DNA of 64,000 bases from ANME-2 cluster archaeon (lineage in GTDB: Archaea > Halobacteriota > Methanosarcinia > Methanosarcinales > Methanocomedenaceae). Positions 7,895-60,607 of this stretch are shown here, in pieces. Where the stretch lies: assembly GCA_014237145.1 (NCBI GenBank), contig JAAXOC010000096.1, positions 60,138-124,137 of the forward strand, read 5' to 3'. The position numbers and the translations under genes were made by a program. Position 1 is the first letter of the stretch. Each line of letters begins with the position of its first letter. The notes below the pieces were generated by a model. That model searched no databases, was not told where the DNA came from, and saw only the letters and a list, made by a program, of their open reading frames with translations.

Positions 7895-8200
7895 CCGGAT
7901 TATCTTTTGTGTAGTATTCAAATTAAAAGAACTTCACAAAAAAACCAGTGTTATCTTAGATCGCTATCCTACAGGGGCATCTTGTCTAAAAATGTAAATC
8001 ATGCAGGTGCTTTTAAAATTTTAATGAGGAGAATCTCTAGCAGGGCATGTAAATAATTTAATATTTTAATTTATTCAATCTAAAATATAATATGCATTTT
8101 AATAAAATTACATAAAAGAAATTCAAACCATCTGCTTTTCAGATAATTTTATAATTGATAAATGTGAAGGATTTTTTGTAAAACTTTTGGAGGTTTTAGT

Positions 8201-9835
8201 TTGAATTCGTTAGTTATAGCAGTTATAGGATTAATAGCCCTATATTTTGCATATGTTATATATGGAACAAAAATTTCAAAACTACTTGACATTAATGATG
8301 ACAATGAAACACCAGCCATTGGCATGAACGATGGTGTGGATTATGTCCCGACAAGATCACGGATTGTGTTCGGTCACCATTTTTCATCCATTGCAGGTGC
8401 AGGTCCTATAATCGGTCCGGTGGTGGCAGCGTCCCTCTTTGGCTGGCTGCCGGCATTTTTGTGGATCGTTATCGGCTCTATATTTATTGGAGGTGTCCAT
8501 GATATGAGTTCCATGGTGGCATCCATCCGGCATGAAGGTAAAAGCATTGCAAGTGTTGCCGGAAAAGTCATGAGCAGAAGAGCACAACTTATATTTGCAG
8601 CTTTTATCTGGCTTACATTGATACTCATTGTTGCGGTTTTTGCCGTAGTTGCGGCAAAAGCATTGATCAATAAACCAGAGATCGTCCTGCCCACATTGAT
8701 GCTGATACCCATTGCACTACTTGTAGGTTATATGGGTTTTAAGCTCCGGATAGATACACGTATCGGAACGGCACTGGGTTTGTTGCTTCTCTTTGCATTC
8801 ATATACCTGGGATTGAGTTTTCCCCTTGAACTGCCTGTAAGTGATCCTTTCATTTACTGGGTTGTGATACTTCTTGTGTACGCATTTATCGCATCAGTGC
8901 TGCCGGTCTGGACATTACTTCAACCCAGGGACTATCTGGCCTCATATGTGCTATTCATTGGATTAGCAATAGGATTTATTGGTGTGGCTGTGGTTCATCC
9001 GACGATTTCCACTCCAGCCTTTATCAGCGTCAATAGTAGTGCTGGATATCTTTGGCCCATACTGTTTGTGACAGTTGCATGTGGGGCAGTCTCTGGTTTT
9101 CATTCACTTGTCAGCAGCGGGACAACTTCAAAACAGATCAAGAAAGAATCCGATACAAAAGTGATAGGATACGGTGCCATGCTGGTGGAAGGTGTTCTGG
9201 CCATTCTGGCATTACTTGCAGTAACCGCAGGATTGAGCTGGGCCACCAATGACCCATCAATATCTTATCCTGTACTCCTGAAGCAGGGTTGGATACTGAC
9301 GTTCGGTACCGGCTATGGTCACCTGGTGGCCCCAATCTTTGGTTTAACGCTGGGAACTGTGGTCGGCATGATGATAATAAAGACTTTTGTCATGACCACA
9401 CTTGATACGGCAAGCAGGCTTGGAAGATTTGTAGGTACAGAACTGTTCGGAAGTAACGGACTTGGTATTACAGTGATGGATAACAGGTATGTATCCACAA
9501 TAGTTTTGATAATACCGGCAGGCGCTCTTGCTCTTACTGATAGCTGGACCATTATCTGGCCGGTTTTCGGGTCAGCGAACCAGTTGATTGCAGCCCTGAC
9601 ACTGTTTGTAGTTACTATCTGGCTTGTGGGACTGAAAAAACCGTCACGATATACTTTATATCCTGGCATTTTCATGTTGCTGACTACGATAGCGGCACTG
9701 GTGTTCCTGGCTATCGACCTGATACCGGCCAAGAATTACTTACTGGGCGGCACGGTAATTATTTTGCTTGTGCTGGCACTTCTTGTGGTGGTTGAAACCA
9801 TTTCCAGCTGGAAAAGAATTAAAGCAAGTGTATAA
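8201..9835 (+). CDS. cstA: Carbon starvation protein CstA family transporter
   Basis: The 544-aa polytopic membrane ORF has FGHHFSSIAGAGPIIGP and GAVSGFHSLVSSGTTSKQ motifs. The start is TTG, preceded by ggagg. Confidence 0.85.
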   Translation: MNSLVIAVIGLIALYFAYVIYGTKISKLLDINDDNETPAIGMNDGVDYVPTRSRIVFGHHFSSIAGAGPIIGPVVAASLFGWLPAFLWIVIGSIFIGGVHDMSSMVASIRHEGKSIASVAGKVMSRRAQLIFAAFIWLTLILIVAVFAVVAAKALINKPEIVLPTLMLIPIALLVGYMGFKLRIDTRIGTALGLLLLFAFIYLGLSFPLELPVSDPFIYWVVILLVYAFIASVLPVWTLLQPRDYLASYVLFIGLAIGFIGVAVVHPTISTPAFISVNSSAGYLWPILFVTVACGAVSGFHSLVSSGTTSKQIKKESDTKVIGYGAMLVEGVLAILALLAVTAGLSWATNDPSISYPVLLKQGWILTFGTGYGHLVAPIFGLTLGTVVGMMIIKTFVMTTLDTASRLGRFVGTELFGSNGLGITVMDNRYVSTIVLIIPAGALALTDSWTIIWPVFGSANQLIAALTLFVVTIWLVGLKKPSRYTLYPGIFMLLTTIAALVFLAIDLIPAKNYLLGGTVIILLVLALLVVVETISSWKRIKASV

Positions 9836-9865
9836 ACAAAAACCTGGATTTGAAAATTAAAGTCT

Positions 9866-9896
9866 GGCCATTTTATAATGGCCTTCCCTTTTTTAA
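9866..9896 (+). terminator. Hairpin plus T-tract after cstA
   Basis: ggccatt(9866-9872)/aatggcc(9878-9884) form a stem, followed by ttcccttttttaat. Confidence 0.45.
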
Positions 9897-9951
9897 TATT
9901 TGTATTGGGCAAAGATTATCTAAGTATATTGGATATTATAATTGGTAATAT

Positions 9952-10890
9952 ATGGCTAATAAGAAACTACGTATAGGTCACCTCTCCACATTCTACCATA
10001 CTTCGTTCATACTTATGGGTACACAATGGCTTGAGGATAAACTGGGCCTTACAGTCAAATGGAGCATGTTCGGCGGAGGCCCGGCTATCGTGGATGCTTT
10101 TTCCAGGGGCGAGGTGGATATTGGATATATCGGGCTGCCCCCTGTGATGATAGGTATTGACAGGGGCGTGCCCATCATATGCGTGGGCGGCGGCCATATG
10201 GAGGGGACTGTGATGATCGGGCCGCCCGGGTGCAGTACGCTTAAGGATAAGGGCGGGGATATGGCATCGGTCCTGGAGCAGTTCAGGGGCGGTGTAATCG
10301 GGTGTCCGCCGTCAGGTTCTATCCATGATGTAATTATCCGCAACCTGCTGGAGGAGCATGACCTTGGCGGGTCTATTGAGGTAAGGAATTTTCAGTGGGC
10401 AGATTTTATTCCCGATGCACTGGATGACGGCCAGGTGGATGCGGCTATTGGGACGCCGCCTTTGTCGGTTGCGGCTGCCAGGGTATGCGGTACAAAGGTT
10501 GTGATCCCGCCTTCAAAGCTCTGGCCCTTTAATCCAAGTTATGGTATTATTGTAAGCCGTGAACTGCTGCGGGACAGACGTGGACTGGTAGAGGATTTCC
10601 TGCAGCTCCACGAGGATGCTTCCAATCTAATACGGAATGAGCCAGGGCGTGCCGCCCAGGTAGTATCCGATCTGGTTGAAGTGGTTGACAGTGATTTTAT
10701 CATGCAGACTTACCGGGTATCTCCCAGATATTGTGCAGGTCTTCCCAGGGAGTATATTGATTCAACGATGGCTTTTGTACCAGTGCTTCGTAATCTTGGT
10801 TATGTTGAGAATGAACTGGATGAGAGTGATGTTTTTGATAGGACAGTGATTGAAAAGGTACATCCGGGGGAGTACCATTATTTTTTATAG
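9952..10890 (+). CDS. NMT1/THI5- or SsuA-like substrate-binding protein (no obvious signal peptide)
   Basis: The 312-aa ORF has a periplasmic-binding-protein-like pattern (LRIGHLSTFYHT...GGGPAIVDAFSRGEVDIGYIGLPP). The ligand is unknown. Confidence 0.5.
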   Translation: MANKKLRIGHLSTFYHTSFILMGTQWLEDKLGLTVKWSMFGGGPAIVDAFSRGEVDIGYIGLPPVMIGIDRGVPIICVGGGHMEGTVMIGPPGCSTLKDKGGDMASVLEQFRGGVIGCPPSGSIHDVIIRNLLEEHDLGGSIEVRNFQWADFIPDALDDGQVDAAIGTPPLSVAAARVCGTKVVIPPSKLWPFNPSYGIIVSRELLRDRRGLVEDFLQLHEDASNLIRNEPGRAAQVVSDLVEVVDSDFIMQTYRVSPRYCAGLPREYIDSTMAFVPVLRNLGYVENELDESDVFDRTVIEKVHPGEYHYFL

Positions 10891-50708: not shown

Positions 50709-52619
50709 ATGACAAAGATATACCTGGGAAAAATGGTGCTGCACTGGTGCCCCCAATGCGATCTACCGGTACTGGAGCCCATATGTGCATGCGGCTCACC
50801 TGCTGGTAAGGTCAGGGTTACACCGCCCGGTGATATCAGGCCCACATTCCCCCATGATATTAACCTTATCAATGCTACTGCTATAACGCAGTTCGGCAGT
50901 CCCTTGATACCTGACGGGACTATCGCCATCATGAATAAAGTGCCATCGGACGACAGGATGGAAGAGATCATAGCCAGTGGAGTGCCCCTTGCCAATATCA
51001 GGTTCGATGTGGAGTCAGGTAAGTGGGTACTGCTGCCCAGGATGGAAGGGGCAGCCAGGATATTCACTAAAATGGAGGGGCGCAGCAACTGGGTGGTGAT
51101 CGACGAATCGGCAGTACCGTTCATAGAAAAAGGTGCCAGCACGCTGGCACCCGGCGTTATCGATGCCGACCCTGGGATCATCCCGGGCGCTGAGGTGATA
51201 GTGGTATCGCCTGATGGCATACCTGTGTCTGCCGGCAGGGCTAAGATGAACGGTAGGGAAATGGTGGAAGCCAAAAGGGGCGTGGCTGTCAAGACCAGGT
51301 GGAGCGGGATTGTTGAAACAGTTGCAGCACCCGTCCCCCATTCATGGGATGATGTAGTTACTGCTAATCTTAATATCCTAAAAGATTTTGAAGCTAAAGC
51401 CCATGCGTTTATCAGGAACGTGTCCCAATCCACAAACCGACCTGTAAGTGTATCATACTCGGGGGGCAAGGACAGCCTGGTCACCTTGCTGCTGGTAATG
51501 GACTGCCTGGATGGCTTCAATGTCTTGTTCGCTGATACCGGACTGGAGTTCCCAGAGACACTGGAGAATGTAAAAGAGGTTGGCAGGCATTACGGCCTGA
51601 CTGTGAAAACCTTTTATGCAGGGGACGTGTTCTGGGACTCAATCGATACTTTCGGACCACCCACGGTTGAGGCGAGATGGTGCTGCAAGACCTGTAAACT
51701 GGGCCCGATCTCCACGCTCATTGAAGAGAACTTCCCAGAAGGCTGCCTGACATTTATCGGTCAGCGCAAGTACGAAAGCGAGGGCCGGGCCAGGAGTGAT
51801 AAGATATGGAAGAATCCCTGGATAGGTAACCAGATAGCGGCCTCGCCGATCCAGAACTGGACTGCGCTGCATATCTGGCTGTACCTCTTCTGGAAAGGGG
51901 CGCCGTACAATCCGTTGTATGAACAGGGGTTCGACCGCATCGGCTGCTGGCTGTGTCCCTCGGGAAGCATGGCTGAGATGTCGCGTATTAAGGATATTCA
52001 TCCTGAAATGTGGGCCAGGTTCGAGGAGAAGCTGCACTCCCATGCAGAGAAGTTCGGCTACGGGAAGGGCTGGGTAGATTACGGGCTGTGGCGCTGGCAA
52101 AATCCTCCGAAAGTGCAGCGTAAAATGGCAGAGAGGCTGGGCATCAACCTGGTACCTGAAGGGTTCGGCGGGGAGATGGAGTTCTCAATGGTGTCTGGGT
52201 ACAGGCCATGTAAGGCTGGCGGGGTTTCGGCTGAGGGTAGTTTTGGTGTGCCCCTGAACCTTGAGGCAATCGAGGGTTCGGGTATGATGAGAGTGCTGGG
52301 TGAGGTGCATTCCATGGATGGTGTGATCACATCCAGCCAGGGTGAGGATAATGTGCAGGTGTTCGCATCTGGCACTGTGACTGCCAGGAGCGATACTGAT
52401 GCCAGAGCCAGGCGGTTGATGAGGGGGGCCGAATCTTCGATCCGGCGGGCGCTGGAGTGTACGGGCTGCGGGCTGTGTGTGGGTAAGTGCAAGGTGCGGG
52501 GTGTGAAGGTTAAGGATGGGTGGGCTATGGTGAATGAGAACTGTACGCATTGTGGGCTGTGTTTGAAAGCATGCCCGGTGGTGCGGTATTTGAATACCAA
52601 AGATCTATCGAATATATGA
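50709..52619 (+). CDS. PUA-domain + PAPS reductase-like PP-loop ATPase + 2x[4Fe-4S] ferredoxin fusion protein
   Basis: The 636-aa ORF has an N-terminal zinc ribbon (CPQCD...CACG) and a PUA-like region. The PP-loop is VSYSGGKDS. The C-terminus has CTGCGLCVGKC...CTHCGLCLKACP. Confidence 0.75.
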   Translation: MTKIYLGKMVLHWCPQCDLPVLEPICACGSPAGKVRVTPPGDIRPTFPHDINLINATAITQFGSPLIPDGTIAIMNKVPSDDRMEEIIASGVPLANIRFDVESGKWVLLPRMEGAARIFTKMEGRSNWVVIDESAVPFIEKGASTLAPGVIDADPGIIPGAEVIVVSPDGIPVSAGRAKMNGREMVEAKRGVAVKTRWSGIVETVAAPVPHSWDDVVTANLNILKDFEAKAHAFIRNVSQSTNRPVSVSYSGGKDSLVTLLLVMDCLDGFNVLFADTGLEFPETLENVKEVGRHYGLTVKTFYAGDVFWDSIDTFGPPTVEARWCCKTCKLGPISTLIEENFPEGCLTFIGQRKYESEGRARSDKIWKNPWIGNQIAASPIQNWTALHIWLYLFWKGAPYNPLYEQGFDRIGCWLCPSGSMAEMSRIKDIHPEMWARFEEKLHSHAEKFGYGKGWVDYGLWRWQNPPKVQRKMAERLGINLVPEGFGGEMEFSMVSGYRPCKAGGVSAEGSFGVPLNLEAIEGSGMMRVLGEVHSMDGVITSSQGEDNVQVFASGTVTARSDTDARARRLMRGAESSIRRALECTGCGLCVGKCKVRGVKVKDGWAMVNENCTHCGLCLKACPVVRYLNTKDLSNI

Positions 52620-52804
52620 TGAGTATACTTAACGTAGAATCGAATTTGGGTTAATTATACATGACACACATTAGACAGGTGCTGCCGGACTCCAATGAAT
52701 AGTGGAAGGGTATAAGTTTTTAGTGGATGACTATTTTGGGTAGCTATCCTAAAGTACTGAAAGTGACTGGAACGATTTTAAATTTTGATATTCACTTAAC
52801 ATAG

Positions 52805-53032
52805 TTCCAGGAGGAATCGAATGCCACGTTTTACTCTCTTAGACATAGTTTTGCCACATATCTACTGGAAAGTGGTACAGACATGCAGTATATCCAGGAG
52901 TTGCCTGAGCACAAAAGTTCAAAGATAACAGAAATATATACACATATCTGTACCAAGAATGTAGGTAAGTTTAAAAACCCATTGGATAGTTTACAGATAA
53001 AAGAAGGAGAATCACTTATTGACCCAGCTTGA
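52805..53032 (+). pseudogene. Tyrosine recombinase/integrase, C-terminal fragment only
   Basis: It reads FQEESNATFYSLRHSFATYLLESGTDMQYIQELPEHKSSKITEIYTHICTKNVGKFKNPLD, which covers the R-H-x-x-R...Y catalytic C-terminus. A TAG lies immediately upstream and there is no N-terminal part. It is AT-rich, unlike what follows. Confidence 0.75.
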
Positions 53033-53540
53033 ATACATCGAAGCTATTGAAAAGCGCCTCTGGGGTGTGGTGGACACAATGCGGGCTAACTCCAACTACG
53101 CCAGCAACGAGTACTTCCTACCCGTGATGGGGCTGGTGTTTCTCAGGCACGCCTACAGCTGCCATCTTGCGGTGAAGGGTGGTATCGAGGCTAACCTTCC
53201 CACCCGCGGCGTCAAGACGCGAGCGCTGACCAAGAAGGATTTCTCCGGGCAGGGCGCTATTTTCCTTCAACCCAGGGCGCAGTTCGACCATCTCGTGGCC
53301 CTGCCCGGCAGCGAAGACCGCTCCAAGGCGATCATTGAAGCAATGGAGTCTATAGAAGGCGACTACGACAACCTGCGTGGTGTCCTTCCCAAGAGCGAAT
53401 ATCAGGAACTGGATGACGATGTACTCGGCCAGCTCTTGCGGACGCTCAACCCCGACGAGCTGGCGAAATATAATGAGTCACTCACCCAAGCCCGCAACCT
53501 CCTCCTGCCGCGCTTGATGAATGGGGAGGTTGTCGTTTGA
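53019..53540 (+). pseudogene. hsdM: Type I R-M remnant: HsdM N-terminal domain fused in frame to an HsdS C-terminal tail
   Basis: The HsdM_N-like part is EKRLWGVVDTMRANSNYASNEYFLPVMGLVFLRHA...SIEGDYDNLRGVLPK. The HsdS-type ending is ARNLLLPRLMNGEVVV*. There is no methyltransferase catalytic domain. Confidence 0.7.
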
Positions 53541-53640
53541 GCTTAATTGTTTTCGTCAAACTCATTGCTTTGTGCGAATGGTTTACTGTAAAGCATAAAC
53601 GTACTGTAACCTCAACCAGATACTCTCAAGCCGCTGTCGG
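53537..53640 (+). pseudogene. Decayed 5' remnant of a second AlbA_2-type gene
   Basis: Track ORF 53537..53749 begins ...KLIALCEWFTVKHKRTVTSTRYS. The intact gene at 57784 has SNLIALGEGFTTEFKRTVTSSLGR. The TTGA overlap with the hsdS tail mirrors the ATGA at 57784. Confidence 0.45.
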
Positions 53641-53748
53641 TCTTGACGAGGGTTTGAGTGAACGGAGCGTTGGGTGCGTTAACATCTATGTAGCCATGTT
53701 GGTTTTTATGGCGACGATACGGGCAAGCATGCTTTTGGAGGCAGTCTG

Positions 53749-56700
53749 ATGCCAGCCTTTGTAACCAACGGACCCGATATCCCAGAGAGTCTATTGCGGG
53801 CACACGAAGATGGCCGTGTTGTATTTTTCTGCGGCGCTGGCATTTCATACCCGGCAGATCTGCCGGATTTTTGCGGTTTGATGGATCGGGTATATAGGGA
53901 GTTGGATACGACGTGGACGCAGTACCCAATCGAGAAGCAGGCTTATGATAATAAACAGTACGATGCGATGCTGGATCAGTTGGAACGCCGCTACCCCGGT
54001 CATCGCTTTAAGGTCAGAAAGGCGTTGGCAAACGTTCTCAAGCCCAAGTGGCGCAAAAAAGGCGCTACAACGACCCACCAGGCACTGCTGCAACTGGCTA
54101 TTGATCACAAGGGCAAGACCAGGCTAGTTACCACCAACTTTGACCGCATTTTCAAGTCCATAATAACACGGCATAAGCCTGAGATTCCGAGCTTTGATGC
54201 TCCTCTCCTGCCCATTCCAAAACCGACCCGTTGGCGTGGTGTGGTGCATCTGCACGGTTTATTACCTACTTCGGCCGACGAAACTGCGCTCAATCGCTTG
54301 GTTTTGACCAGTAGCGATTTTGGTCTGGCATACCTCACTGAGCGTTGGGCGGCTCGTTTTGTCAGCGAGTTGTTCCGAAATTACACGGTTTGCTTCGTCG
54401 GTTATGGCATCAACGACCCGGTATTGCGCTACATGATGGATGCGCTCGCCGCCGATGAGTTACTTGGTGAAACTCGACCTGAAGCCTATGCCTTCGCAAA
54501 CTTCCGCGATGGCGAACGGGACCAGGCGCAGATCGAATGGGAAACTAAAGGTGCCATTCCGCTGCTATACGAAGTGCCTACGGATACACAAAATCACTCA
54601 GCGCTTCATCTCACCCTCAAAGAGTGGGCTGACACGTATCGCGATGGTGTGAGTGGCAAGAAAATGATTATAACGAAGCATGCGAGTACGCCGCCGTTGA
54701 CATCGTCGCGGTCAGACTTTGCCGTCGGTCGCGTGCTGTGGGCATTGACAGACTGGCTGGCAGCCAAACACTTTGCCGACCTAAATCCCGTTCCCCCATT
54801 AGAATGGCTCGAACCGCTGACTAAAGCCCAGTTTAGTCATGACGACTTGGCGTGCTTCGGGGTGGTTCCCAAAAGCGAAAAAGATGAAAATCTGATTTTT
54901 AGCGTCATTAGCCGTCCAGCACCGTATACACATGCGCCCTTGATGTGCATTGTTGACATGGGTGCCCAGGTAAGCTATTGGGACGAACTCATGTTCCAAT
55001 TGGCACATTGGCTCACGCGGCATCTCGATGACCCTAAACTAATACTTTGGTTGTCCAATCAAGGCGGCCAGTTGCATAAGCGATTCGCATCTATGGTCCG
55101 GAGTCGAATTGAATACCTTGATAAGCTGGTACACGATGACAATCAGACTGAACTCGAACGTATCCGCGCTGCTGCTCCCAGAGCCATACCAAGCCGATTA
55201 ATGCGTATCCTCTGGAGGCTGCTGTTGTCCGGGTGTGTGAAGTCACCTCAAATCAATTTAGATCTCTACGATTGGTTACGCCGCTTTGAGCAGGACGGCC
55301 TCACGCCGACCTTGTGTATGGAACTACGTGAGTTTTTGAGGCCATATGTGATTCTTCGTGAACCATTCCGTTGGGACGAAGAAATAACCGACCTGCACGA
55401 GGCGAAGTCCATTAAAGATCTTGTAGAATGGGATATCGTACTGTCCAGCGATCATGTTCATTCCATGTTGCGCGATCAGGCGAACAAGCCGGGTTGGCAG
55501 GCGGCACTACCAGATTTGTTGCAGGACGTCACCGTTCTACTGCGTGATGCGCTCGATCTGATGCGGGAATTAAGCGGCGCAGAAGACAAGAGCGATTTGT
55601 CCTATCTCGATCAGCCTTCAATCAGCGAGCACGAACAGAACATAGGTTTTCCCGACTGGACGGCATTGATCGAACTCACACGCGATGCTTGGTTGGCTAC
55701 GGTGCAGACCAATCCAGCACAGGCACGGCATGCCGCAGAAGGCTGGTGGCAGGTGCCTTATCCGCTATTCAAACGGCTGGCCTTTTTTGCTGCGACACAG
55801 AGCGATGTAATTCCTCCTCCTCATGCGCTCAGCTGGCTGCTGGCCGATAATCACAAGTGGCTGTGGTCAATTATAACCAAGCGCGAAGCAATACGCCTGT
55901 TGGTGTCACTAACGCCAAAGTTGGATGCATTGGGGATAACTGAATTGGAGCAAGCCATTTTGGAGGGGCCACCGCATGAGATGTTTATGGATGACCTTGA
56001 TCCACAAGAGTGTGCACGCATCGTGGATCAAGATATCTGGTTGCGACTGGCAAAAGCGAGTGCTTCAGGGGCAGTACTCGGCCACGATGCCAGTACAAAA
56101 CTGGCTGATCTGACACTACAATATCCAGGTTGGAAGTTGGCTGAAGACGAAAGTGATGAGTTTCCGATTTGGATAAGCGAAGATGATAGGTGGCGCAATT
56201 TTGTCCCCACACCACGCCACCAAATCGAATTGATGGAGTGGCTCAAACAACCCGCCAGATCAGATCAGAGGCAGGAAGACGACTGGCTTCAGCGCTGTCG
56301 TGACGACTTTTCGACTACCTCTGGCGCCTTGTCTGCTTTGGCTCAGGATAAGGAGTGGCCCATCGAACGCTGGCGCGAAGCACTACAAGTTTGGGCAGAG
56401 GATAAATTGATCGAACACTCTTGGAGCATGGCGCAAGTAATTTCCAAAGCACCCGATGATGTAATTCAAGCACTTTCACATAGTCTCGGCTGGTGGCTGC
56501 AAGCACAAGCCAGAATCTTCAAGGGTCGTGAGGAGCTGTTTTTCGCTCTCATTCGTCGTATTCTGGAATTGGAACTCCAAAATGGGGTGCATAAGGATTA
56601 TGACCCTGTGTCTAGTGCAATCAACCATCCCGTCGGACTCGTGACGAAGGCGTTACTACACTGGTGGTATCAACAGAAGCCGAAAGACACAGAAGGTCTG

Positions 56701-57546
56701 AGAGACGAGGTCAAACCTCTATTCACTAAACTTTGCGATACGGGAGTTGAGAAGTTCCGCCACGGCCGCGTTTTGCTCGCAGCCCACGCGATTGCGCTGT
56801 TCCGAGTGGATGAGAAGTGGGTGAGAGAGTGTCTACTGCCCTTGTTCGACTGGCAACTATCTGAGGTTGAGGCACGTGCGGTCTGGGATGGCTTTTTGTG
56901 GTCACCTCGCCTCTACCTACCGCTGCAGTCAGCCATCAAACAGCCGTTGTTAGAAACAGCGACACACTATGAGGAACTCGGTAAGCACGCCGAGCAGTAT
57001 GCGGCATTTTTGACCTTTGCAGCCTTAGACCCGGGCGACACATTCACAACCAAAGAATTGGCGGAGGCGACGTGTAAATTACCTGTGGAGGGCTTGCAAA
57101 GTGCGGTGCAGGCAGTTATCCGTGCTCTTGATGGCGCTGGTGAACAACGTGGGGAATATTGGCGTAATCGTGTTCTTCCGTACTTTAATTTGGTTTGGCC
57201 CAAAACCATTGTTGTGATGACACCCACGATATCGGAGCTTTTCGGCCAGCTCTGCGTGGCTGCACAGGAAGCCTTTCCAGAGGCGTTGGAGAAGTTACAG
57301 CACTGGCTACAGCCAGTTGAACATCCATTTTATCTTATTCATCTCCTGAACGAAGCGAAATTGTGCAATCAATTTTCATCAGATGCTCTGGTGTTTCTGG
57401 ATACTGTTGTTGGTAATGATGCACAGTTGTTGCCACAAGAACTTAAGCAGTGCCTGGATGATATTGAAAAAGCCGACCAGACATTGGCCGAGGATGCGCG
57501 TTTTGTTCGGTTGAGTCAGGTTTTCGAAAGGCATGGCATTTCCTGA
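53749..57546 (+). CDS. SIR2-domain giant protein (defence-associated sirtuin / SIR2-DUF4020-like), 1265 aa
   Basis: ggagg precedes the ATG. The N-terminal motifs are VVFFCGAGISYPADLPDF, LVTTNFDRIF, VVHLHGLL, LTSSDFGLAY and CFVGYGINDPVLRYMMD. About 1000 aa of helical, W/L-rich C-terminal region follow. Confidence 0.8.
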   Translation: MPAFVTNGPDIPESLLRAHEDGRVVFFCGAGISYPADLPDFCGLMDRVYRELDTTWTQYPIEKQAYDNKQYDAMLDQLERRYPGHRFKVRKALANVLKPKWRKKGATTTHQALLQLAIDHKGKTRLVTTNFDRIFKSIITRHKPEIPSFDAPLLPIPKPTRWRGVVHLHGLLPTSADETALNRLVLTSSDFGLAYLTERWAARFVSELFRNYTVCFVGYGINDPVLRYMMDALAADELLGETRPEAYAFANFRDGERDQAQIEWETKGAIPLLYEVPTDTQNHSALHLTLKEWADTYRDGVSGKKMIITKHASTPPLTSSRSDFAVGRVLWALTDWLAAKHFADLNPVPPLEWLEPLTKAQFSHDDLACFGVVPKSEKDENLIFSVISRPAPYTHAPLMCIVDMGAQVSYWDELMFQLAHWLTRHLDDPKLILWLSNQGGQLHKRFASMVRSRIEYLDKLVHDDNQTELERIRAAAPRAIPSRLMRILWRLLLSGCVKSPQINLDLYDWLRRFEQDGLTPTLCMELREFLRPYVILREPFRWDEEITDLHEAKSIKDLVEWDIVLSSDHVHSMLRDQANKPGWQAALPDLLQDVTVLLRDALDLMRELSGAEDKSDLSYLDQPSISEHEQNIGFPDWTALIELTRDAWLATVQTNPAQARHAAEGWWQVPYPLFKRLAFFAATQSDVIPPPHALSWLLADNHKWLWSIITKREAIRLLVSLTPKLDALGITELEQAILEGPPHEMFMDDLDPQECARIVDQDIWLRLAKASASGAVLGHDASTKLADLTLQYPGWKLAEDESDEFPIWISEDDRWRNFVPTPRHQIELMEWLKQPARSDQRQEDDWLQRCRDDFSTTSGALSALAQDKEWPIERWREALQVWAEDKLIEHSWSMAQVISKAPDDVIQALSHSLGWWLQAQARIFKGREELFFALIRRILELELQNGVHKDYDPVSSAINHPVGLVTKALLHWWYQQKPKDTEGLRDEVKPLFTKLCDTGVEKFRHGRVLLAAHAIALFRVDEKWVRECLLPLFDWQLSEVEARAVWDGFLWSPRLYLPLQSAIKQPLLETATHYEELGKHAEQYAAFLTFAALDPGDTFTTKELAEATCKLPVEGLQSAVQAVIRALDGAGEQRGEYWRNRVLPYFNLVWPKTIVVMTPTISELFGQLCVAAQEAFPEALEKLQHWLQPVEHPFYLIHLLNEAKLCNQFSSDALVFLDTVVGNDAQLLPQELKQCLDDIEKADQTLAEDARFVRLSQVFERHGIS

Positions 57547-57628
57547 TGTAACGGGAGAAAGACAAAAGCATGATTGAGAAAATGTACGTTACTATGATTA
57601 TTAAGACGACACTGAAAAACAACGAATC

Positions 57629-57787
57629 ATGAGCACTAGCAATTACACCGAAGACACCCTCGTTCAGCAAACCATGGTCGAGTATCTGGATTCACAGCTC
57701 GGCTGGGAATCGGTCTATGCCTCCAACAACGAGGACTTCGGACAGGACCGCCTACCGCGCTTGATGAACGGGGTGGTGACAGTATGA
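57629..57787 (+). pseudogene. hsdR: Type I R-M remnant: HsdR N-terminus fused in frame to an HsdS C-terminal tail (52 codons)
   Basis: It reads MSTSNYTEDTLVQQTMVEYLDSQLGWESVYASNNEDFGQD + RLPRLMNGVVTV*. Its stop overlaps the next ATG (ATGA). Confidence 0.65.
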
Positions 57788-59190
57788 ACGAACACACGCT
57801 TTCCAACCTCATCGCCCTCGGCGAAGGCTTCACCACTGAGTTCAAACGTACGGTTACTTCCAGCCTCGGGCGGGAGATATGCGCTTTTGCCAATGCAACA
57901 GGTGGTATCATCCTGATTGGGGTGGATGATGATGGTGAGATTGTCGGGGTTGGCAAGCACAATAAACTTAAGTCTCAGGTCCAGTCCATCGCCCGTTCTG
58001 CCGAACCCCCCATCGCGGTTGATGTAGAGAACATTGGCGAAGTACTTTGCATCACTATACCTGAACAACACAGCAAGCCCTATTCCTTTAGCGGCAAGTT
58101 TTTCATTCGCGAAGGTGCGACCTCGCAGCAGATGGCCCGCAATGAAATCCGCGAGTTTTTCTTCAAGGAAGGGTTGATTCATTTTGATGAAACACCCTGT
58201 ACCAATTATGATCTGGAACGTGACCTGACCCCTGAGATCTGGAGCCGTTTTATTCAGCACGCCCGTCTTCCGGATGGGCTGGAGACTCGTCCTGCATTGG
58301 ATAACCTGCATCTGACCAAAGACAGCAAGATGACCCATGCCGGTGCCTGGCTGCTGTGTGATGACATCACCTGCTATACCTTGCAGGCGCATGTAACCTG
58401 TGCGATGTTTAGGGGAACGACCAAAACCTACATCCTAGACCGCAAGGATTTTGCTGGCGATCTCTATTCAATCTACGAAGACTGCATGGCCTACTTGCAG
58501 GCCAAGTTGAATACTGCTCTAATCCCTCATGCGAGAGGCCGGGACGAACGGCTGGAGTTGCCAGCAGATGCCCTCCGGGAAGCCCTGGTCAATGCCATTG
58601 CACACCGTGACTATCGCTCAACCGCCAATGTGCAGGTGTACGTCTTCTACGACCGTCTTGAGATTGTGACGCCGGGCGGCCTGCCCGCTGGGATGCGCGA
58701 GGAGGATTTGGGAGTGAAAAGTGTGCCGCGCAATCCATTGCTGTTTGGAATGTTCTATCGTATGGGGATGGTGGAACAGGTAGGCAGTGGCATCAAACGA
58801 ATCCGTGAGATGTGTCGCGATTATGGAGTGGCTGAGCCAGTGATTGAGGTCTCGGAGAACTGGGTGACAACCACGTTCAGGCGGCCGATCGAACAAGTTG
58901 AAGACCAGGTCACGGGTGAAGTCACGGGTGAAGTCACGGGTGAAGTCACAAGTGAAGTCAAGCAACTACTACATGTCCTCACCAGCGGCTCCATGATGAG
59001 AGCCGAACTGCAGGAAGCGCTCAATCTCAAGGGACAGACAAACTTCAGGGATCGTCATCTTACGCCGGCACTTGAAGTGGGCCTGATTGAGATGACCATT
59101 CCAGATAAGCCAAAGAGTCGCCTGCAGAAGTATCGACTGACCGAAAAAGGCAAGGCTTTACTTAAGGAGTTGGAAGGTGGATCGTCATGA
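57784..59190 (+). CDS. AlbA_2 (Schlafen-type) + HATPase_c_4-like + wHTH protein (COG2865 'RecG-like' putative DNA-binding regulator)
   Basis: The 468-aa ORF has EGFTTEFKRTV...ICAFANATGGIILIGVDDDGEIVGV (AlbA_2) and REALVNAIAHRDY...GSGIKRI (HATPase-like). The C-terminus is QKYRLTEKGKALL (wHTH). Confidence 0.8.
   Translation: MNEHTLSNLIALGEGFTTEFKRTVTSSLGREICAFANATGGIILIGVDDDGEIVGVGKHNKLKSQVQSIARSAEPPIAVDVENIGEVLCITIPEQHSKPYSFSGKFFIREGATSQQMARNEIREFFFKEGLIHFDETPCTNYDLERDLTPEIWSRFIQHARLPDGLETRPALDNLHLTKDSKMTHAGAWLLCDDITCYTLQAHVTCAMFRGTTKTYILDRKDFAGDLYSIYEDCMAYLQAKLNTALIPHARGRDERLELPADALREALVNAIAHRDYRSTANVQVYVFYDRLEIVTPGGLPAGMREEDLGVKSVPRNPLLFGMFYRMGMVEQVGSGIKRIREMCRDYGVAEPVIEVSENWVTTTFRRPIEQVEDQVTGEVTGEVTGEVTSEVKQLLHVLTSGSMMRAELQEALNLKGQTNFRDRHLTPALEVGLIEMTIPDKPKSRLQKYRLTEKGKALLKELEGGSS
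58909..58956 (+). repeat. 12-nt in-frame tandem repeat (4 copies) in the AlbA_2 gene linker
   Basis: gtcacgggtgaa occurs 3 times, then gtcacaagtgaa. They encode VTGE-VTGE-VTGE-VTSE. Confidence 0.9.
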
Positions 59191-59510
59191 ATCCCGTCCC
59201 CTACACCTAAGACACCCTTATCCAGCAGACCACCGCCGAATACCTGGAGCAGTAGCTCGGCTGGGACTCAGTCTACGCCTACAACAACGAGGACTTCAGA
59301 CCGGACAGCCTGCTGGGTCGTGCATCCGACCGTGAGGTAGTGCTGACACGCATCCTGCGTGAGAAGCTCATCGAACTGAACCCGCACCTGCCCGATAAGG
59401 CCTACGATGACGCAGTGCGCCAGATCACAGTCACCGACGCTGTGCGGGTGACCATTTGGGATTTCCTTTGGAGCGACAAAACGGGGTTGCCTGTGGAGAG
59501 TTACACATAG
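59187..59510 (+). pseudogene. hsdR: hsdR pseudogene: N-terminus with two in-frame nonsense codons joined to the extreme C-terminus
   Basis: It reads MNPVPYT*DTLIQQTTAEYLEQ*LGWDSVYAYNNEDFRPDSLLGRASDREVVLTRILREKLIELNPHLPDKAYDDAVRQI...VTIWDFLWSDKTGLPVESYT*. The stops are TAA 59208-59210 and TAG 59253-59255. The helicase/nuclease core is absent. Confidence 0.7.
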
Positions 59511-59653
59511 GATGATCTAAAAACAATATCTAATGAAGTATTTAGGCATGTTTACCGGGTATATCCATCGGTTCCATCGCCGTGTTATGCAGAAGCTGCA
59601 TGAAAAGATAAACGAAATATTTACAGAACCGCGCCCGCCTCAGTCAAACACTA

Positions 59654-59741
59654 CGATAGATAGCGCCTGGATGCTCTGTATGCGAGCTGCGGCCTCGGGC
59701 AGTGGTGGACATATTGGGGCACCTCTGCAGCTGTTGAAATA
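59654..59741 (+). repeat. Copy A of a roughly 90-nt direct repeat pair at the island's right edge
   Basis: It shares ...atagc.cctg.at...tgctct.tatgcg.gc.gcgg.ctc...gctgttgaaata with copy B. Confidence 0.6.
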
Positions 59742-60039
59742 ATCGAATAAACAGCAGAGGTTCGTAGAGCGTATTTACTTTTCTCTGAGCACTCGGCGGT
59801 TCATCTTAAACTGATTACAGCTCCTGTTAGTTTCTTCAATCATCCCACCGACAGCAACCAGGTTTTGCAATGTGCCAACCGCGTGCTAACCCATGATTGC
59901 TTCCCTCACAAGTTCAAATCCGTGTAAATCCGTATCCTAAAATATTGCCACCCCAGCCCCCATTTATTCACTACCTCGCCACCCTCTGCAAACATCTGCC
60001 TGCGCTGCCGTCAGCACTCACCCTGCCGCCCCTCCTGCT

Positions 60040-60132
60040 CGACCCCATAGCCTGCATCTCGTTGCTCTATATGCGGGCAGCGGTCTCTGGGGTTGGTTAA
60101 TGCTGCCGATAGCGGCCATGGCTGTTGAAATA
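60040..60132 (+). repeat. Copy B of the roughly 90-nt direct repeat pair
   Basis: See copy A. It has the same orientation, a 5-nt indel, a divergent middle and an identical 3' end (gctgttgaaata). Confidence 0.6.
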
Positions 60133-60146
60133 TATAATCTGTGTAA

Positions 60147-60353
60147 TGTGGTACAGATGAAGAACTTCAGGAAGCAAGGCAATTGATAAGAAAAATTCCA
60201 CAACATCCTTTAGTTAAATCTGATGTGAAAAGACCTGAGATCCTTCAGGATTTTGTTGCACTTGTTGAGGATGAGTTTAATAAAGTCCCCGAGACAGATA
60301 TTAGCAGGTGGCTGTCTAATTTTATTGACACAGATGCTAGATCGACGCCATAG
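60147..60353 (+). pseudogene. Start-less, protein-like open frame (possible C-terminal fragment of a disrupted host gene)
   Basis: It is open from a TAA at 60144-60146: CGTDEELQEARQLIRKIPQHPLVKSDVKRPEILQDFVALVEDEFNKVPETDISRWLSNFIDTDARSTP*. It is AT-rich like the host. I do not recognise the family. Confidence 0.25.
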
Positions 60354-60433
60354 TTGGTAGTGTTCAGAAAAATAAATGGCCTTTATAGTGGTAGTATTTA
60401 GTGAGATCTGGGACATGGAAAGATGATGTGAAT

Positions 60434-60607
60434 CCAACGAGGTCTAAGACCGTAGCGTGGTATCAAACGGAAACTATGGGAACTCGGGAGGGCCATTATG
60501 CTCTCCTTACAAGGGTAGGAGTTTGCAATATCAAGCCAATGAACGGTAAGACACGGTTTAATGTAATAAAAAATCTCCAGTTAGTTGCCCTAAATTTAAT
60601 GTTCAGC
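60434..60607 (+). pseudogene. Possible DDE transposase C-terminal remnant (IS5/IS1182-like ending)
   Basis: The 5' extension of the radical-SAM ORF reads ...RSKTVAWYQTE...GKTRFNVIKNLQLVALNLM. This loosely matches the R-S-x-V-E...G-x-x-K-V...A-x-N-L endings of such transposases. The call is weak and by eye only. Confidence 0.25.

What the first reader, a model, noticed from the sequence alone, without database searches (positions are those of the whole stretch)
57784..59190. Intact AlbA_2/Schlafen-type + HATPase-like + wHTH protein as the second retained cargo, possibly working with the SIR2 protein
The domain order is read from motifs.
- AlbA_2: EGFTTEFKRTV...AFANATGGIILIGVDDDGEIVGV
- GHKL/HATPase_c_4-like: REALVNAIAHRDY...VEQVGSGIKRIREMC
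- A repeat linker
- wHTH: QKYRLTEKGKALL

Genes of this COG2865 type often sit between hsdS and hsdR, but their role there is not established. Here it remains an uninterrupted ORF while its R-M partners are dead, and it lies 240 nt downstream of the SIR2 gene on the same strand.

There are two hypotheses. It may be a nucleic-acid sensor or regulator that gates the SIR2 effector. Or it may be an independent Schlafen-like defence gene.
Basis: partly seen in the sequence, partly recalled or inferred. Interest (0 to 1): 0.55.

Follow-up and report, generated by a model that had tools for sequence, protein, structure and literature searches.

The report
Stand-alone Schlafen–ATPase defence gene, orphaned
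An intact archaeal gene encodes a bacterial-type Schlafen nuclease fused to a small ATPase and a DNA-binding tail; this is a common, recently described kind of predicted antiviral tRNA cutter, and it has outlived the restriction system it arrived in and shows no sign of depending on the neighbouring SIR2 (Dsr1) gene.

Summary
Window 57784..59190 (+) is an uninterrupted 468-aa ORF with SLFN_AlbA_2, HATPase_c_4 (GHKL) and a C-terminal winged-helix domain (Pfam Fic-like_C). The nuclease motif Ex4ExK, the CAFAN box, D49 and the GHKL motif E266/N270 are all conserved.

This is the "Schlatpase–HTH" or "pSlfn HisKinase–HTH" architecture described in 2025-26 papers. It is the commonest kind of prokaryotic Schlafen protein.

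The upstream SIR2 gene is Dsr1, a known single-gene defence. The type I R-M genes around both are dead.

Intact relatives show the progenitor operon: hsdM–hsdS–Dsr1–scar–Slfn–hsdR. Dsr1 and Slfn are stacked cassettes in the hsdS–hsdR slot, separated by a scar made of the hsdR 5' end fused to the hsdS tail.

- One sister lineage has Slfn without Dsr1.
- Another has Dsr1 with a frameshifted Slfn.
- Only 2 of 80 Slfn loci have a Dsr1-like gene within 10 kb, both on the opposite strand.
- Slfn stayed under purifying selection after the R-M genes died (dN/dS 0.145).

Verdict: an autonomous Schlafen-type defence gene and a new member of a known kind. The idea that it partners with SIR2 is not supported.

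The parts
57784..59190 (+). Slfn gene: a 468-aa Schlafen(AlbA_2)–GHKL ATPase–winged-helix protein ('Schlatpase–HTH'), the subject of the finding
   Evidence: Intact ORF. Three Pfam domains above cut-off. E14, E19, K21, E266 and N270 are invariant and D49 is at least 90% conserved in 48 homologues. Best fold match is PDB 3LMM, followed by histidine-kinase CA domains and winged-helix proteins. dN/dS is 0.145 against L005.
57823..58134 (+). SLFN_AlbA_2 nuclease domain (aa 14-117), with E14-x4-E19-x-K21, C33AFAN37 and G40GIILIGVDDDG51
   Evidence: Pfam PF04326, E 2.8e-21. phmmer alignments to SLFN14/8/12/11 cover the SAFAN-GG-GVDD stretch. The motif definitions come from PMC13056530 and bioRxiv 10.64898/2026.05.29.728809.
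58555..58893 (+). Minimal GHKL / HATPase_c_4 ATP-binding domain (aa ~258-370), with E266/N270, P297GGLP and G334SG336
   Evidence: Pfam PF13749, E 4e-22. Residues 258-374 align to 3LMM. Foldseek hits VanS, CusS and PDK catalytic domains. Invariant residues are listed.
58909..58960 (+). 12-nt tandem repeat of 4.3 copies, encoding the (GEVT)n flexible linker
   Evidence: TRF score 90. pLDDT is below 50 for residues 371-386. Copy number varies among homologues.
58954..59142 (+). C-terminal winged-helix domain (Pfam Fic-like_C, aa 391-453)
   Evidence: Pfam PF21247, E 1.1e-24. Matches the C-terminal domain of PDB 4RGL at E 5e-11. Foldseek matches to the winged-helix proteins AspA, RosR and YodB.
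57629..57787 (+). Scar ORF of 52 codons: hsdR codons 1-40 fused to the last 12 codons of hsdS. Its stop overlaps the Slfn ATG.
   Evidence: Sequence read. The 110-nt direct repeat with 59202-59311 is 80% identical. The same kind of scar occurs in L092, L093, L097, L090, L006, L014, L011, L013 and L084.
53749..57546 (+). Dsr1 (defence-associated sirtuin 1), 1265 aa, a separate single-gene cassette
   Evidence: NCBIfam NF041818 equivalog, 1783 bits. PADLOC Dsr1. Absent from L005 at the same site. Present alone in the hsdS-hsdR slot in L098-L101.
53537..53749 (+). 70-codon bridging ORF between the hsdS tail and Dsr1. Its first ~26 codons are a degenerate remnant of the Slfn 5' end.
   Evidence: tblastn similarity to Slfn N-termini. 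DNA alignment of 53501-53618 with 57748-57865. Kept as an open frame in L088, L091, L092, L093, L096 and L097, with pN/pS 0.5-0.7.
53019..53540 (+). Dead R-M remnant: the HsdM N-terminal 150 aa fused to the last ~25 aa of HsdS
   Evidence: Pfam HsdM_N. PADLOC MTase_I at 3-153 and Specificity_I at 147-173. The same fusion occurs in L005 and L092.
59187..59591 (+). hsdR pseudogene: codons 1-90 joined to 1025-1076, with in-frame TAA and TAG stops
   Evidence: Translation and tblastn. The same internal deletion is present in L092, and the same truncated end in L005. L005 carries different nonsense mutations.
52805..53033 (+). C-terminal fragment of a tyrosine recombinase at the left edge of the island
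   Evidence: The translation shows RHSFATYLLESGTD...IQELPEHKSSKITEIYTH. A weak Phage_integrase hit is on record for the equivalent ORF of L004.

Best explanation
The gene encodes an autonomous, single-protein defence module of the prokaryotic Schlafen class (SLFN nuclease + GHKL ATPase = 'Schlatpase', plus a C-terminal winged helix).

**Proposed mechanism**
1. The GHKL domain binds ATP and drives oligomerisation. This brings pairs of single-lobe SLFN domains together into an active, bilobed metal-dependent RNase.
2. On an infection cue, the RNase cuts tRNA and stops translation, giving abortive infection or growth arrest. The cue is probably sensed through the winged helix on its flexible repeat linker, or through the oligomeric state.

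**History**
- The gene entered this ANME-2 archaeon inside a bacterial-type type I R-M operon: hsdM–hsdS–Dsr1–scar–Slfn–hsdR.
- The R-M genes then decayed, while Slfn, and separately Dsr1, were kept.

**Shown here**
- Domain architecture and conserved catalytic and ATP-binding residues.
- The ancestry of the locus.
- Purifying selection after the R-M genes died.
- Lack of a conserved partner gene.

**Inferred from homologues**
- tRNase activity and ATP-driven assembly, from RzAgo, RorSlfn5 and CbCash.

**Unknown**
- The trigger.
- Whether the gene is expressed and active in an archaeal host.
For: **Architecture and motifs**
- Three Pfam domains lie above their cut-offs.
- The PADLOC pAgo model PDLC02394 matches residues 25-384. 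This is the SLFN-GHKL module of SLFN-pAgos.
- E14, E19 and K21 (Ex4ExK), C33AFAN and E266/N270 are invariant, and D49 is at least 90% conserved, in 48 homologues of 63-96% identity.
- D49 aligns with the GVDD aspartate of SLFN14.

**Fold**
- The best match is 3LMM, which has the same architecture. Histidine-kinase/PDK ATP-binding domains and winged-helix proteins follow.

**Literature**
- pSlfn proteins defend against phages by cutting tRNA. HisKinase-HTH fusions make up 19.2% of pSlfns (PMC13056530).
- In RzAgo, ATP binding by the PF13749 domain drives the tetramerisation that assembles the SLFN nuclease. Most Schlatpase proteins are small, with or without a C-terminal HTH, and some sit in type I R-M operons (bioRxiv 10.64898/2026.05.29.728809).
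- The same architecture is described as a 'backup' RNase beside BREX and R-M systems (PMC12839542 and PMC13462974).

**Autonomy**
- dN/dS is 0.145 against L005 (37 synonymous and 19 non-synonymous changes, binomial p = 1e-11). The housekeeping neighbour gives 0.125. Both lineages share the dead R-M genes.
- Of 80 homologous loci, 49 have no type I R-M part within 10 kb.
- At least five other loci keep a full-length Slfn beside only hsdR fragments.
- No neighbouring gene family other than hsdS, hsdM and hsdR occurs in more than 11 of the 80 loci.
- Slfn is intact in 72 of the 80 loci.
Against: - No member of this exact architecture has a demonstrated phenotype. The HisKinase-type pSlfns tested in E. 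coli gave no protection against the phage panel used.
- The AlphaFold model is only moderate: mean pLDDT 71.9, with the active-site strand 14-28 below 50.
- The gene is of bacterial type in an archaeal host. No expression evidence is available, and the promoter and terminator scans were at chance level.
- One close relative, L092, carries a frameshift. Six of 78 assessable homologues are truncated or carry an internal stop. The gene is therefore dispensable.
- The original tight embedding in R-M operons, with overlapping stop and start codons next to hsdS, leaves room for a function tied to R-M.
Confidence: 0.6

Rival explanations
1. R-M-linked guard, working like PrrC. The protein evolved as a second line of defence for the type I R-M enzyme that hosts it. 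It would be activated when phage inhibits the R-M complex, or by DNA ends that restriction produces. In this window it would be an orphan whose trigger logic is partly lost.
For: - The gene is embedded between hsdS and hsdR in intact operons, with stop and start codons overlapping (L006, L017, L020, L042, L056, L093, L097).
- 31 of 80 loci have type I R-M parts within 10 kb.
- PrrC sets a precedent: a tRNA nuclease embedded in a type IC locus that senses R-M inhibition (PMC12707154).
- The Cash paper speculates that R-M-linked Schlafens sense DNA-cleavage products.
- A Schlatpase fused to HsdS has been reported.
Against: - The gene was kept under purifying selection after hsdM, hsdS and hsdR were destroyed in three sister lineages.
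- 49 of 80 homologues have no R-M nearby. Many of these sit among conjugation or recombinase genes, or next to other defence genes.
- There is no homology to PrrC.
Confidence: 0.2
2. Two-gene system with Dsr1. The Schlafen-ATPase-wHTH protein would sense nucleic acid and gate the SIR2 NADase, or the reverse.
For: - The two genes are on the same strand, 237 nt apart, with no terminator-like site between them.
- The Dsr1-scar-Slfn order recurs in L092, L093/L094 and L097, across 74-87% Dsr1 identity, in both archaeal and bacterial-labelled contigs.
- SIR2_2-TPR proteins lie directly upstream of Slfn in three Latescibacterota loci.
Against: - Dsr1 defends as a single gene and is a full-length equivalog.
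- L005 has Slfn without Dsr1 at the same site.
- L092 has Dsr1 with a frameshifted Slfn.
- Dsr1 occurs without Slfn in L095, L096 and L098-L101.
- Only 2 of 80 Slfn loci have a Dsr1-like gene within 10 kb, both on the opposite strand.
- The two genes are separated by a recombination scar, and the same scar follows other cargo elsewhere.
- The SIR2-TPR slot is variable in sister Latescibacterota loci.
Confidence: 0.05
3. Transcriptional regulator (the old COG2865 annotation). The winged helix would bind DNA, and the protein would control expression of neighbouring defence genes rather than acting as a nuclease.
For: - A C-terminal winged helix is present.
- Historical annotations call these proteins a 'transcriptional regulator' or 'putative DNA binding domain-containing protein'.
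Against: - The nuclease triad and the ATP-binding residues are invariant or nearly so, which is not expected of a mere regulator.
- There is no conserved target gene nearby.
- Homologous SLFN domains are active tRNases.
Confidence: 0.07
4. A functionless hitch-hiker: an open reading frame that has simply not yet decayed.
For: - Everything around it except Dsr1 is degraded.
- One relative carries a frameshift.
Against: - dN/dS is 0.13-0.15 in all three pairwise comparisons among sister lineages, equal to the housekeeping neighbour. The R-M remnant gives 0.32.
- The hsdR remnant has acquired independent nonsense mutations over the same period.
Confidence: 0.05

Closest known systems
Stand-alone 'Schlatpase' (+HTH) proteins, also called pSlfn HisKinase–HTH (Kuzmenko et al., bioRxiv 2026; Perez Taboada et al., Nat Microbiol 2026; old name COG2865)
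   Same: - Same domain order: SLFN_AlbA_2 (PF04326), then GHKL (PF13749), then a C-terminal HTH.
- Same Ex4(D/E)xK and SAFAN motifs and the same E-x3-N ATP site.
- Same association with type I R-M operons and defence islands.
   Different: Nothing structural differs. This copy sits in an archaeon (ANME-2), next to Dsr1, with its R-M host operon degraded. No member of this architecture has yet been shown experimentally to defend.
SLFN-pAgo RzAgo (Runella zeae)
   Same: It shares the N-terminal SLFN + GHKL module: the PADLOC pAgo model aligns to residues 25-384. In RzAgo, ATP binding drives tetramerisation and tRNA cleavage.
   Different: RzAgo carries a ~700-aa Argonaute core that acts as a guide-dependent DNA sensor. 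Here the only extra part is a ~70-aa winged helix, so the sensing step must differ.
PDB 3LMM (DIP2311, Corynebacterium diphtheriae; structural genomics)
   Same: It is the best fold match over the whole length (Foldseek E 2e-15). Its HATPase_c_4 region aligns by sequence (E 1e-10).
   Different: Identity is only about 19-20%, the protein is longer (583 aa), and no function is known.
PrrC / RloC anticodon nucleases embedded in type I R-M loci
   Same: Same genomic niche inside an hsd operon, and the same predicted outcome: tRNA cleavage as a second line of defence.
   Different: The folds are unrelated. No PrrC-family model appears among the Pfam or PADLOC hits for this protein. PrrC depends on its R-M complex for silencing and triggering, whereas this gene persists under selection without an R-M system.
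Mammalian SLFN11/13/14 nuclease domain
   Same: Homologous to the catalytic C-lobe, with the same acidic triad and SAFAN box (phmmer E 0.003-0.1 over residues 16-61).
   Different: The mammalian proteins have an extra N-lobe and an SF1 helicase/ATPase. The prokaryotic protein has a single lobe and an unrelated GHKL ATPase.
Dsr1 (defence-associated sirtuin 1), the neighbouring gene
   Same: It is also cargo of the hsdS–hsdR slot of the same type I R-M family.
   Different: It is an unrelated protein (a SIR2 NADase with a large C-terminal sensor), is sufficient on its own, and is gained and lost independently of Slfn.

Membership tests
Prokaryotic Schlafen nuclease (SLFN_AlbA_2, PF04326) | Profile match above the curated cut-off | tested here: met
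   76.7 bits against a cut-off of 25.3, residues 14-117.
Prokaryotic Schlafen nuclease (SLFN_AlbA_2, PF04326) | Catalytic E-x4-(D/E)-x-K motif | tested here: met
   E14-GFTT-E19-F-K21, invariant in 48 homologues. The motif is defined.
Prokaryotic Schlafen nuclease (SLFN_AlbA_2, PF04326) | SAFAN 'Schlafen box', followed by a glycine/hydrophobic core and the third acidic residue | tested here: met
   C33AFAN37-ATGG-IILIGVDDDG. A34, F35, A36, N37, G40 and G41 are invariant and D49 is at least 90% conserved. The stretch aligns to the SAFAN...GVDD segment of SLFN14. The S-to-C change at the first position is invariant in this clade.
Prokaryotic Schlafen nuclease (SLFN_AlbA_2, PF04326) | Metal-dependent tRNA/RNA cleavage | not testable with these tools
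   Needs biochemistry.
Schlatpase supradomain (SLFN + GHKL PF13749) | HATPase_c_4 profile match C-terminal to the SLFN domain in the same polypeptide | tested here: met
   78.5 bits against a cut-off of 26, residues 281-365. The PADLOC pAgo model spans residues 25-384.
Schlatpase supradomain (SLFN + GHKL PF13749) | GHKL Mg-ATP site (E-x3-N, as E314/N318 in RzAgo) and glycine loops | tested here: met
   E266, N270, G298, G299, G334 and G336 are invariant. The fold matches histidine-kinase and PDK ATP-binding domains.
Schlatpase supradomain (SLFN + GHKL PF13749) | ATP-dependent oligomerisation | not testable with these tools
   No multimer prediction or biochemistry is available here.
pSlfn HisKinase–HTH architecture | C-terminal helix-turn-helix after the GHKL domain | tested here: met
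   Fic-like_C (PF21247), 86.5 bits, residues 391-453. Foldseek matches to winged-helix proteins.
Anti-phage defence system (functional sense) | Demonstrated protection against a virus | not testable with these tools
   There is only guilt by association and homology. The HisKinase-type pSlfns tested in E. coli showed no protection.
Two-gene SIR2(Dsr1)+Slfn system | Conserved co-occurrence beyond shared descent | tested here: not met
   Only 2 of 80 Slfn loci have a Dsr1-like gene within 10 kb, both on the opposite strand. On the Dsr1 side, 4 of 7 distinct contexts lack Slfn.
Two-gene SIR2(Dsr1)+Slfn system | Neither gene persists intact without the other | tested here: not met
   L005 has Slfn only. 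L092 has an intact Dsr1 and a frameshifted Slfn. L098-L101 have Dsr1 only.
PrrC-type R-M-embedded anticodon nuclease | Homology to PrrC | tested here: not met
   No such family appears among the Pfam, NCBIfam or PADLOC hits.
PrrC-type R-M-embedded anticodon nuclease | Location inside a type I hsd operon | tested here: met
   This is the ancestral arrangement, seen intact in L006, L093 and L097. Here only remnants flank the gene.
Functional type I R-M system (in this window) | Intact hsdM, hsdS and hsdR | tested here: not met
   A 173-aa HsdM-N::HsdS-tail fusion. hsdR is reduced to codons 1-90 and 1025-1076, with stop codons.
Dsr1 (the neighbouring gene) | NCBIfam equivalog score above cut-off, over the full length | tested here: met
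   1783 bits against a cut-off of 1400, residues 4-1258 of 1265.

The most novel reading that the evidence does not exclude
The hsdS–hsdR gap of this type I R-M family may behave like a cassette platform. The conserved hsdS 3' tail and the first ~40 codons of hsdR would serve as recombination anchors. Defence genes (Slfn, Dsr1, PDC-S06, GmrSD-type proteins) would then be stacked, swapped and deleted one at a time, leaving diagnostic scars: the hsdR 5' end fused to the hsdS tail, and a remnant of the Slfn 5' end. The Schlatpase–HTH gene would be the resident cassette. It would be fully autonomous, able to outlive its R-M host even after transfer into archaea. That would settle the open question of whether R-M-embedded Schlafens need their R-M system.
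Probability: 0.3. Interest if true: 0.55.

Novelty: new member of a known kind. Interest (0 to 1): 0.3.

Why it matters
On its own this is one more copy of the commonest prokaryotic Schlafen architecture, so it adds little.

Its value lies in a natural experiment. Three sister ANME-2/Methanosarcinales lineages share the same dead R-M operon but carry different combinations:
- Dsr1 and Slfn (this window);
- Slfn only (L005);
- Dsr1 with a frameshifted Slfn (L092).

Intact progenitor-like operons survive in bacteria (L093, L097).

Together these show that an R-M-embedded Schlatpase–HTH gene is kept by selection without its R-M system and without its neighbour. This bears on how R-M- and BREX-linked Schlafens are triggered, which the 2026 papers leave open. 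The locus also supplies constructs for testing that question: the L093 operon against the orphan gene.

Tried and rejected
- **NCBIfam:** no model matches the Slfn protein.
- **Promoter and terminator scans** of 52600-60500 were at chance level. They are also not designed for an archaeal host.
- **tRNA and Rfam scans** of the island found nothing, so no att-tRNA or ncRNA explains the island boundaries.
- **Metagenome scan for Dsr1 relatives** returned only four short contigs. These were useful for the flanks but not for statistics.
- **Plasmid and phage collections** hold only distant homologues, all below 60% identity and 24-37% among the listed hits. There is no characterised close relative.
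- **Supplementary tables of the Nat Microbiol paper** are not held, so I could not check which pSlfn number this architecture has or which HisKinase constructs were tested.
- **orf70 as a Dsr1 partner protein:** I considered that the 70-codon ORF upstream of Dsr1 might be a real small partner. I rejected this in favour of a remnant of the Slfn 5' end that serves as a translational bridge. Its N-terminus is homologous to Slfn, and its pN/pS is 0.5-0.7.
- **Dsr1 as a recent insertion in the window lineage:** I first read it this way, from L005 alone. I revised that after L092, L093 and L097 showed the stacked arrangement is ancestral. L005 most likely lost Dsr1 by deletion between the ~115-nt direct repeats.
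- **Co-folding of Slfn with Dsr1:** not possible with the tools available.
Full report
**1. The observation**

Window 57784..59190 (+) is an uninterrupted 468-aa ORF.
- SLFN_AlbA_2 at residues 14-117 (E 2.8e-21);
- HATPase_c_4 at 281-365 (E 4e-22);
- Fic-like_C at 391-453 (E 1.1e-24). This is the winged helix containing QKYRLTEKGKALL.

The 'repeat linker' is a real 12-nt tandem repeat of 4.3 copies at 58909..58960. The model has pLDDT below 50 there, so the linker is probably flexible.

The upstream ORF 53749..57546 is not merely 'a SIR2 protein'. It is a full-length Dsr1:
- NCBIfam equivalog NF041818, 1783 bits against a cut-off of 1400;
- a PADLOC Dsr1 hit.

The R-M genes are dead.
- 53019..53540 encodes 150 residues of the HsdM N-terminus fused to the last ~25 residues of HsdS.
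- The hsdR reading frame after Slfn keeps only codons 1-90 joined to 1025-1076, and has in-frame TAA and TAG stops.
- A tyrosine-recombinase C-terminal fragment lies at ~52805..53033.

The host is labelled 'ANME-2 cluster archaeon'. The closest named MAG is Ca. Methanocomedens.

**2. What the protein is**

In an alignment of 48 homologues at 63-96% identity:
- the Schlafen catalytic motif E14-x4-E19-x-K21 is invariant;
- the residues A34-F35-A36-N37 and G40-G41 of the 'SAFAN' box (here C33AFAN) are invariant;
- the GHKL Mg-ATP pair E266/N270 and the glycine loops P297GGLP and G334-S-G336 are invariant;
- D49 in GVDDDG is at least 90% conserved, and aligns with the GVDD aspartate of human SLFN14.

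An AlphaFold2 model reaches mean pLDDT 71.9. Its Foldseek matches are:
- PDB 3LMM, an uncharacterised protein of the same architecture (E 2e-15);
- the C-terminal domain of the Fic protein 4RGL;
- histidine-kinase and PDK ATP-binding domains;
- winged-helix proteins.

PADLOC's pAgo model PDLC02394 aligns to residues 25-384. That region is the SLFN-GHKL module that Kuzmenko et al. (bioRxiv 10.64898/2026.05.29.728809) named the 'Schlatpase' supradomain. They report the following:
- 58.6% of 103,533 prokaryotic SLFN proteins carry it;
- most are small proteins, with or without a C-terminal HTH;
- some are stand-alone genes in type I R-M operons, or are fused to HsdS;
- in RzAgo, ATP binding by this GHKL domain drives a tetramerisation that pairs single-lobe SLFN domains into an active tRNase.

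Other papers describe the same class.
- Perez Taboada et al. (PMC13056530) class the same architecture as pSlfn 'HisKinase-HTH', 19.2% of 5,930 pSlfns. They show tRNA-cleaving defence for other pSlfn fusions. The HisKinase fusions they tested gave no protection.
- The Cash paper (PMC13462974) lists ATPase/DNA-binding Schlafens tied to R-M, BREX and type I CRISPR systems.

The protein therefore belongs to a known and very common class whose own function has not been tested.

**3. The locus history**

Four assemblies carry the identical locus.

L093/L094 and L097 are bacterial-labelled contigs with Dsr1 at 79% and 74% identity and Slfn at 78%. They show the intact progenitor arrangement: hsdM–YhcG–(YhcG)–hsdS–70-codon ORF–Dsr1–49-codon ORF–Slfn–hsdR.

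The short ORF between Dsr1 and Slfn is a recombination scar. It consists of hsdR codons 1-40 fused to the last 8-12 codons of hsdS, and its stop overlaps the Slfn ATG. In the window it lies at 57629..57787. The same kind of scar precedes Slfn after other cargo:
- PDC-S06/AAA_13 in L006 and L014;
- an unknown ~1180-aa protein in L013;
- a first Slfn copy in L011, where the scar precedes a second Slfn paralogue.

The 70-codon ORF upstream of Dsr1 (53537..53749) begins with a degenerate copy of the first ~26 Slfn codons.
- It forms a direct repeat of about 115 nt with 57748..57865.
- It is kept open in seven loci, but with pN/pS 0.5-0.7.
- I read it as a remnant that bridges translation, not as a partner protein.

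Dsr1 alone occupies the same hsdS–hsdR slot in L098/L099 and L100/L101.

Dsr1 and Slfn are thus stacked, separable cassettes in one slot. This fits the published idea of defence genes embedded in type I R-M operons, such as PrrC, TgvAB and the cases in Payne et al..

**4. Tests of the two-gene hypothesis**

Three roughly equidistant sister lineages share the same chromosomal site, between the cation-efflux/PAPS-reductase genes and the radical-SAM gene. The housekeeping neighbour gives dS of about 0.2 between them. All three share the same 173-aa R-M remnant and the same collapsed hsdR. They differ as follows:
- the window has Dsr1 and Slfn;
- L005 has Slfn (95% identity) directly after the hsdS tail, and no Dsr1;
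- L092 has an intact Dsr1 (87%) and a Slfn with a -1 frameshift at codon 264, CCCTCC→CCCCC.

From the Slfn side, I examined 80 loci from one-per-species genomes (59-95% identity; archaea, Chloroflexota, Latescibacterota, Proteobacteria and others).
- Two have a Dsr1-like gene within 10 kb, both on the opposite strand.
- No neighbouring gene family other than hsdS (20 loci), hsdM (17) and hsdR (13) is present in more than 11 loci.

From the Dsr1 side there are seven distinct contexts.
- Three carry Slfn downstream: L092, L093/L094 and L097.
- Four do not: L095, L096, L098/L099 and L100/L101.

Dsr1 is experimentally sufficient as a single gene (Garb et al. preprint).

Three Latescibacterota loci have a SIR2_2-TPR protein directly upstream of Slfn, but sister loci have other genes or nothing in that position.

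I conclude that the adjacency is inherited within one operon lineage and is not a functional pairing. No formal null model was computed.

**5. Tests of autonomy**

Purifying selection:

| Comparison | Gene | dN/dS |
|---|---|---|
| window vs L005 | Slfn | 0.145 (37 syn, 19 nonsyn; binomial p = 1e-11) |
| window vs L005 | PAPS-reductase neighbour | 0.125 |
| window vs L005 | hsdM-hsdS remnant | 0.32 |
| window vs L092 | Slfn, codons 1-263 | 0.13 |
| L005 vs L092 | Slfn, codons 1-263 | 0.125 |
| window vs L092 | Dsr1 | 0.375 |

- Both the window and L005 already carry the dead R-M genes.
- The hsdR remnant picked up different nonsense mutations in the window and in L005 over the same period.

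Distribution among the 80 loci:
- 31 have type I R-M parts within 10 kb;
- 17 have an hsdR 5' end immediately downstream;
- at least five besides this lineage keep a full-length Slfn next to mere hsdR fragments: L021, L071, L074, L082 and L084;
- 49 show no R-M at all;
- several of the R-M-free loci lie among serine-recombinase and conjugation genes, or next to other defence genes such as a TIR protein and an ImmA/IrrE pair;
- Slfn is intact in 72 of the 80; four copies have an internal stop, two are truncated and two are cut by a contig end.

This argues that the gene works on its own, and against a strict PrrC-like dependence on R-M. An R-M-linked trigger in intact operons is not excluded.

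**6. Mechanism, with its status**

- *Shown here:* the architecture, conserved nuclease and ATP-site residues, a flexible repeat linker, the winged helix, selection, and independence from the neighbours.
- *Inferred from RzAgo, RorSlfn5 and CbCash:* ATP-dependent oligomerisation assembles SLFN pairs into a metal-dependent tRNase, whose activation arrests translation.
- *Unknown:* the trigger, and whether the gene is expressed in the archaeal host. Candidate triggers are nucleic acid sensed by the winged helix, DNA ends, or a phage protein.

**7. Verdict**

Hypothesis 2, an independent Schlafen-like defence gene, is the best reading (confidence 0.6). Hypothesis 1, gating of SIR2, is unlikely (0.05).
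- Novelty: a new member of a known kind.
- Interest is modest (0.3). It is raised slightly by the natural gene-loss series and by the cassette scars. These make the question 'do R-M-embedded Schlafens need their R-M system?' directly testable.

Noticed in passing
window 57629..57787; also L092, L093, L097, L090, L006, L014, L011, L013, L084: A recurrent recombination scar: hsdR codons 1-40 (…NNEDFGPDS) fused to the hsdS tail (LPRLMNGEVAV or LMNGEVTV). It lies directly upstream of Slfn, and different cargo genes precede it. The junction falls where the hsdR sequence 'DSLLGR' resembles the hsdS sequence 'DLLLPR', which suggests either microhomology or a single old event followed by cargo swapping.
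   Followed up: partly
window 53537..53749: A 70-codon ORF bridges the hsdS tail and Dsr1, overlapping both the hsdS stop and the Dsr1 start. Its first ~26 codons are a degenerate Slfn 5' end. It is kept open upstream of Dsr1 in seven loci, with pN/pS 0.5-0.7.
   Followed up: partly
L092:8271-9664 (Methanosarcinales MAG GCA_021108445.1, same chromosomal site): The Slfn orthologue (93.5% aa identity) is split by the loss of one base in a C-run at codon 264, while Dsr1 next to it is intact. dN/dS is still 0.13, so the change is either recent or an assembly error.
   Followed up: partly
window 59187..59591: hsdR is collapsed by an internal deletion that joins codon ~90 to codon ~1025. The same collapsed remnant is seen in the sister lineages L005 and L092. 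The nonsense mutations were then acquired independently: the window and L005 carry them at different positions.
   Followed up: yes
window 53749..57546 vs L092: Dsr1 evolves at dN/dS 0.375 between sister lineages, about three times the ratio of Slfn and of the housekeeping neighbour. This suggests relaxed or diversifying selection on its large C-terminal part.
   Followed up: no
window 58909..58960; L044:6555-7538; PDB 4RGL: The tetrapeptide-repeat linker, (GEVT)n here, varies in copy number among close homologues. A similar (QVTD)n repeat precedes the same C-terminal winged-helix domain in Fic-family proteins. The repeat therefore travels with that domain.
   Followed up: partly
L011:1318-4288: Two Slfn-family genes lie in tandem (469 and 532 aa), separated by the same scar and followed by hsdR. 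This may be the duplicated intermediate from which the Dsr1–scar–Slfn stack arose.
   Followed up: no
L022, L033, L044 (Latescibacterota), ~7600-9970: A SIR2_2–TPR protein (PADLOC: pAgo-associated SIR2-like, PDC-S65) lies directly upstream of Slfn, between a Fic gene and Slfn. Sister loci have other genes or nothing in that slot.
   Followed up: partly
L009:6444-10004 and L013:497-4045: A conserved protein of ~1180 aa, with no Pfam or PADLOC hit, occupies the hsdS–Slfn position in two type I R-M operons. It is an uncharacterised candidate embedded defence gene.
   Followed up: no
window 52805..53033: A C-terminal fragment of a tyrosine recombinase lies at the left edge of the island. There is no tRNA gene or Rfam match nearby that would mark an attachment site.
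   Followed up: partly
window 59500..60400: About 900 nt of apparently non-coding DNA lies between the hsdR remnant and the radical-SAM gene. Two short ORFs in it end similarly (…MRAAASGSGG and …MRAAVSGVG), which may mark a degraded repeat.
   Followed up: no
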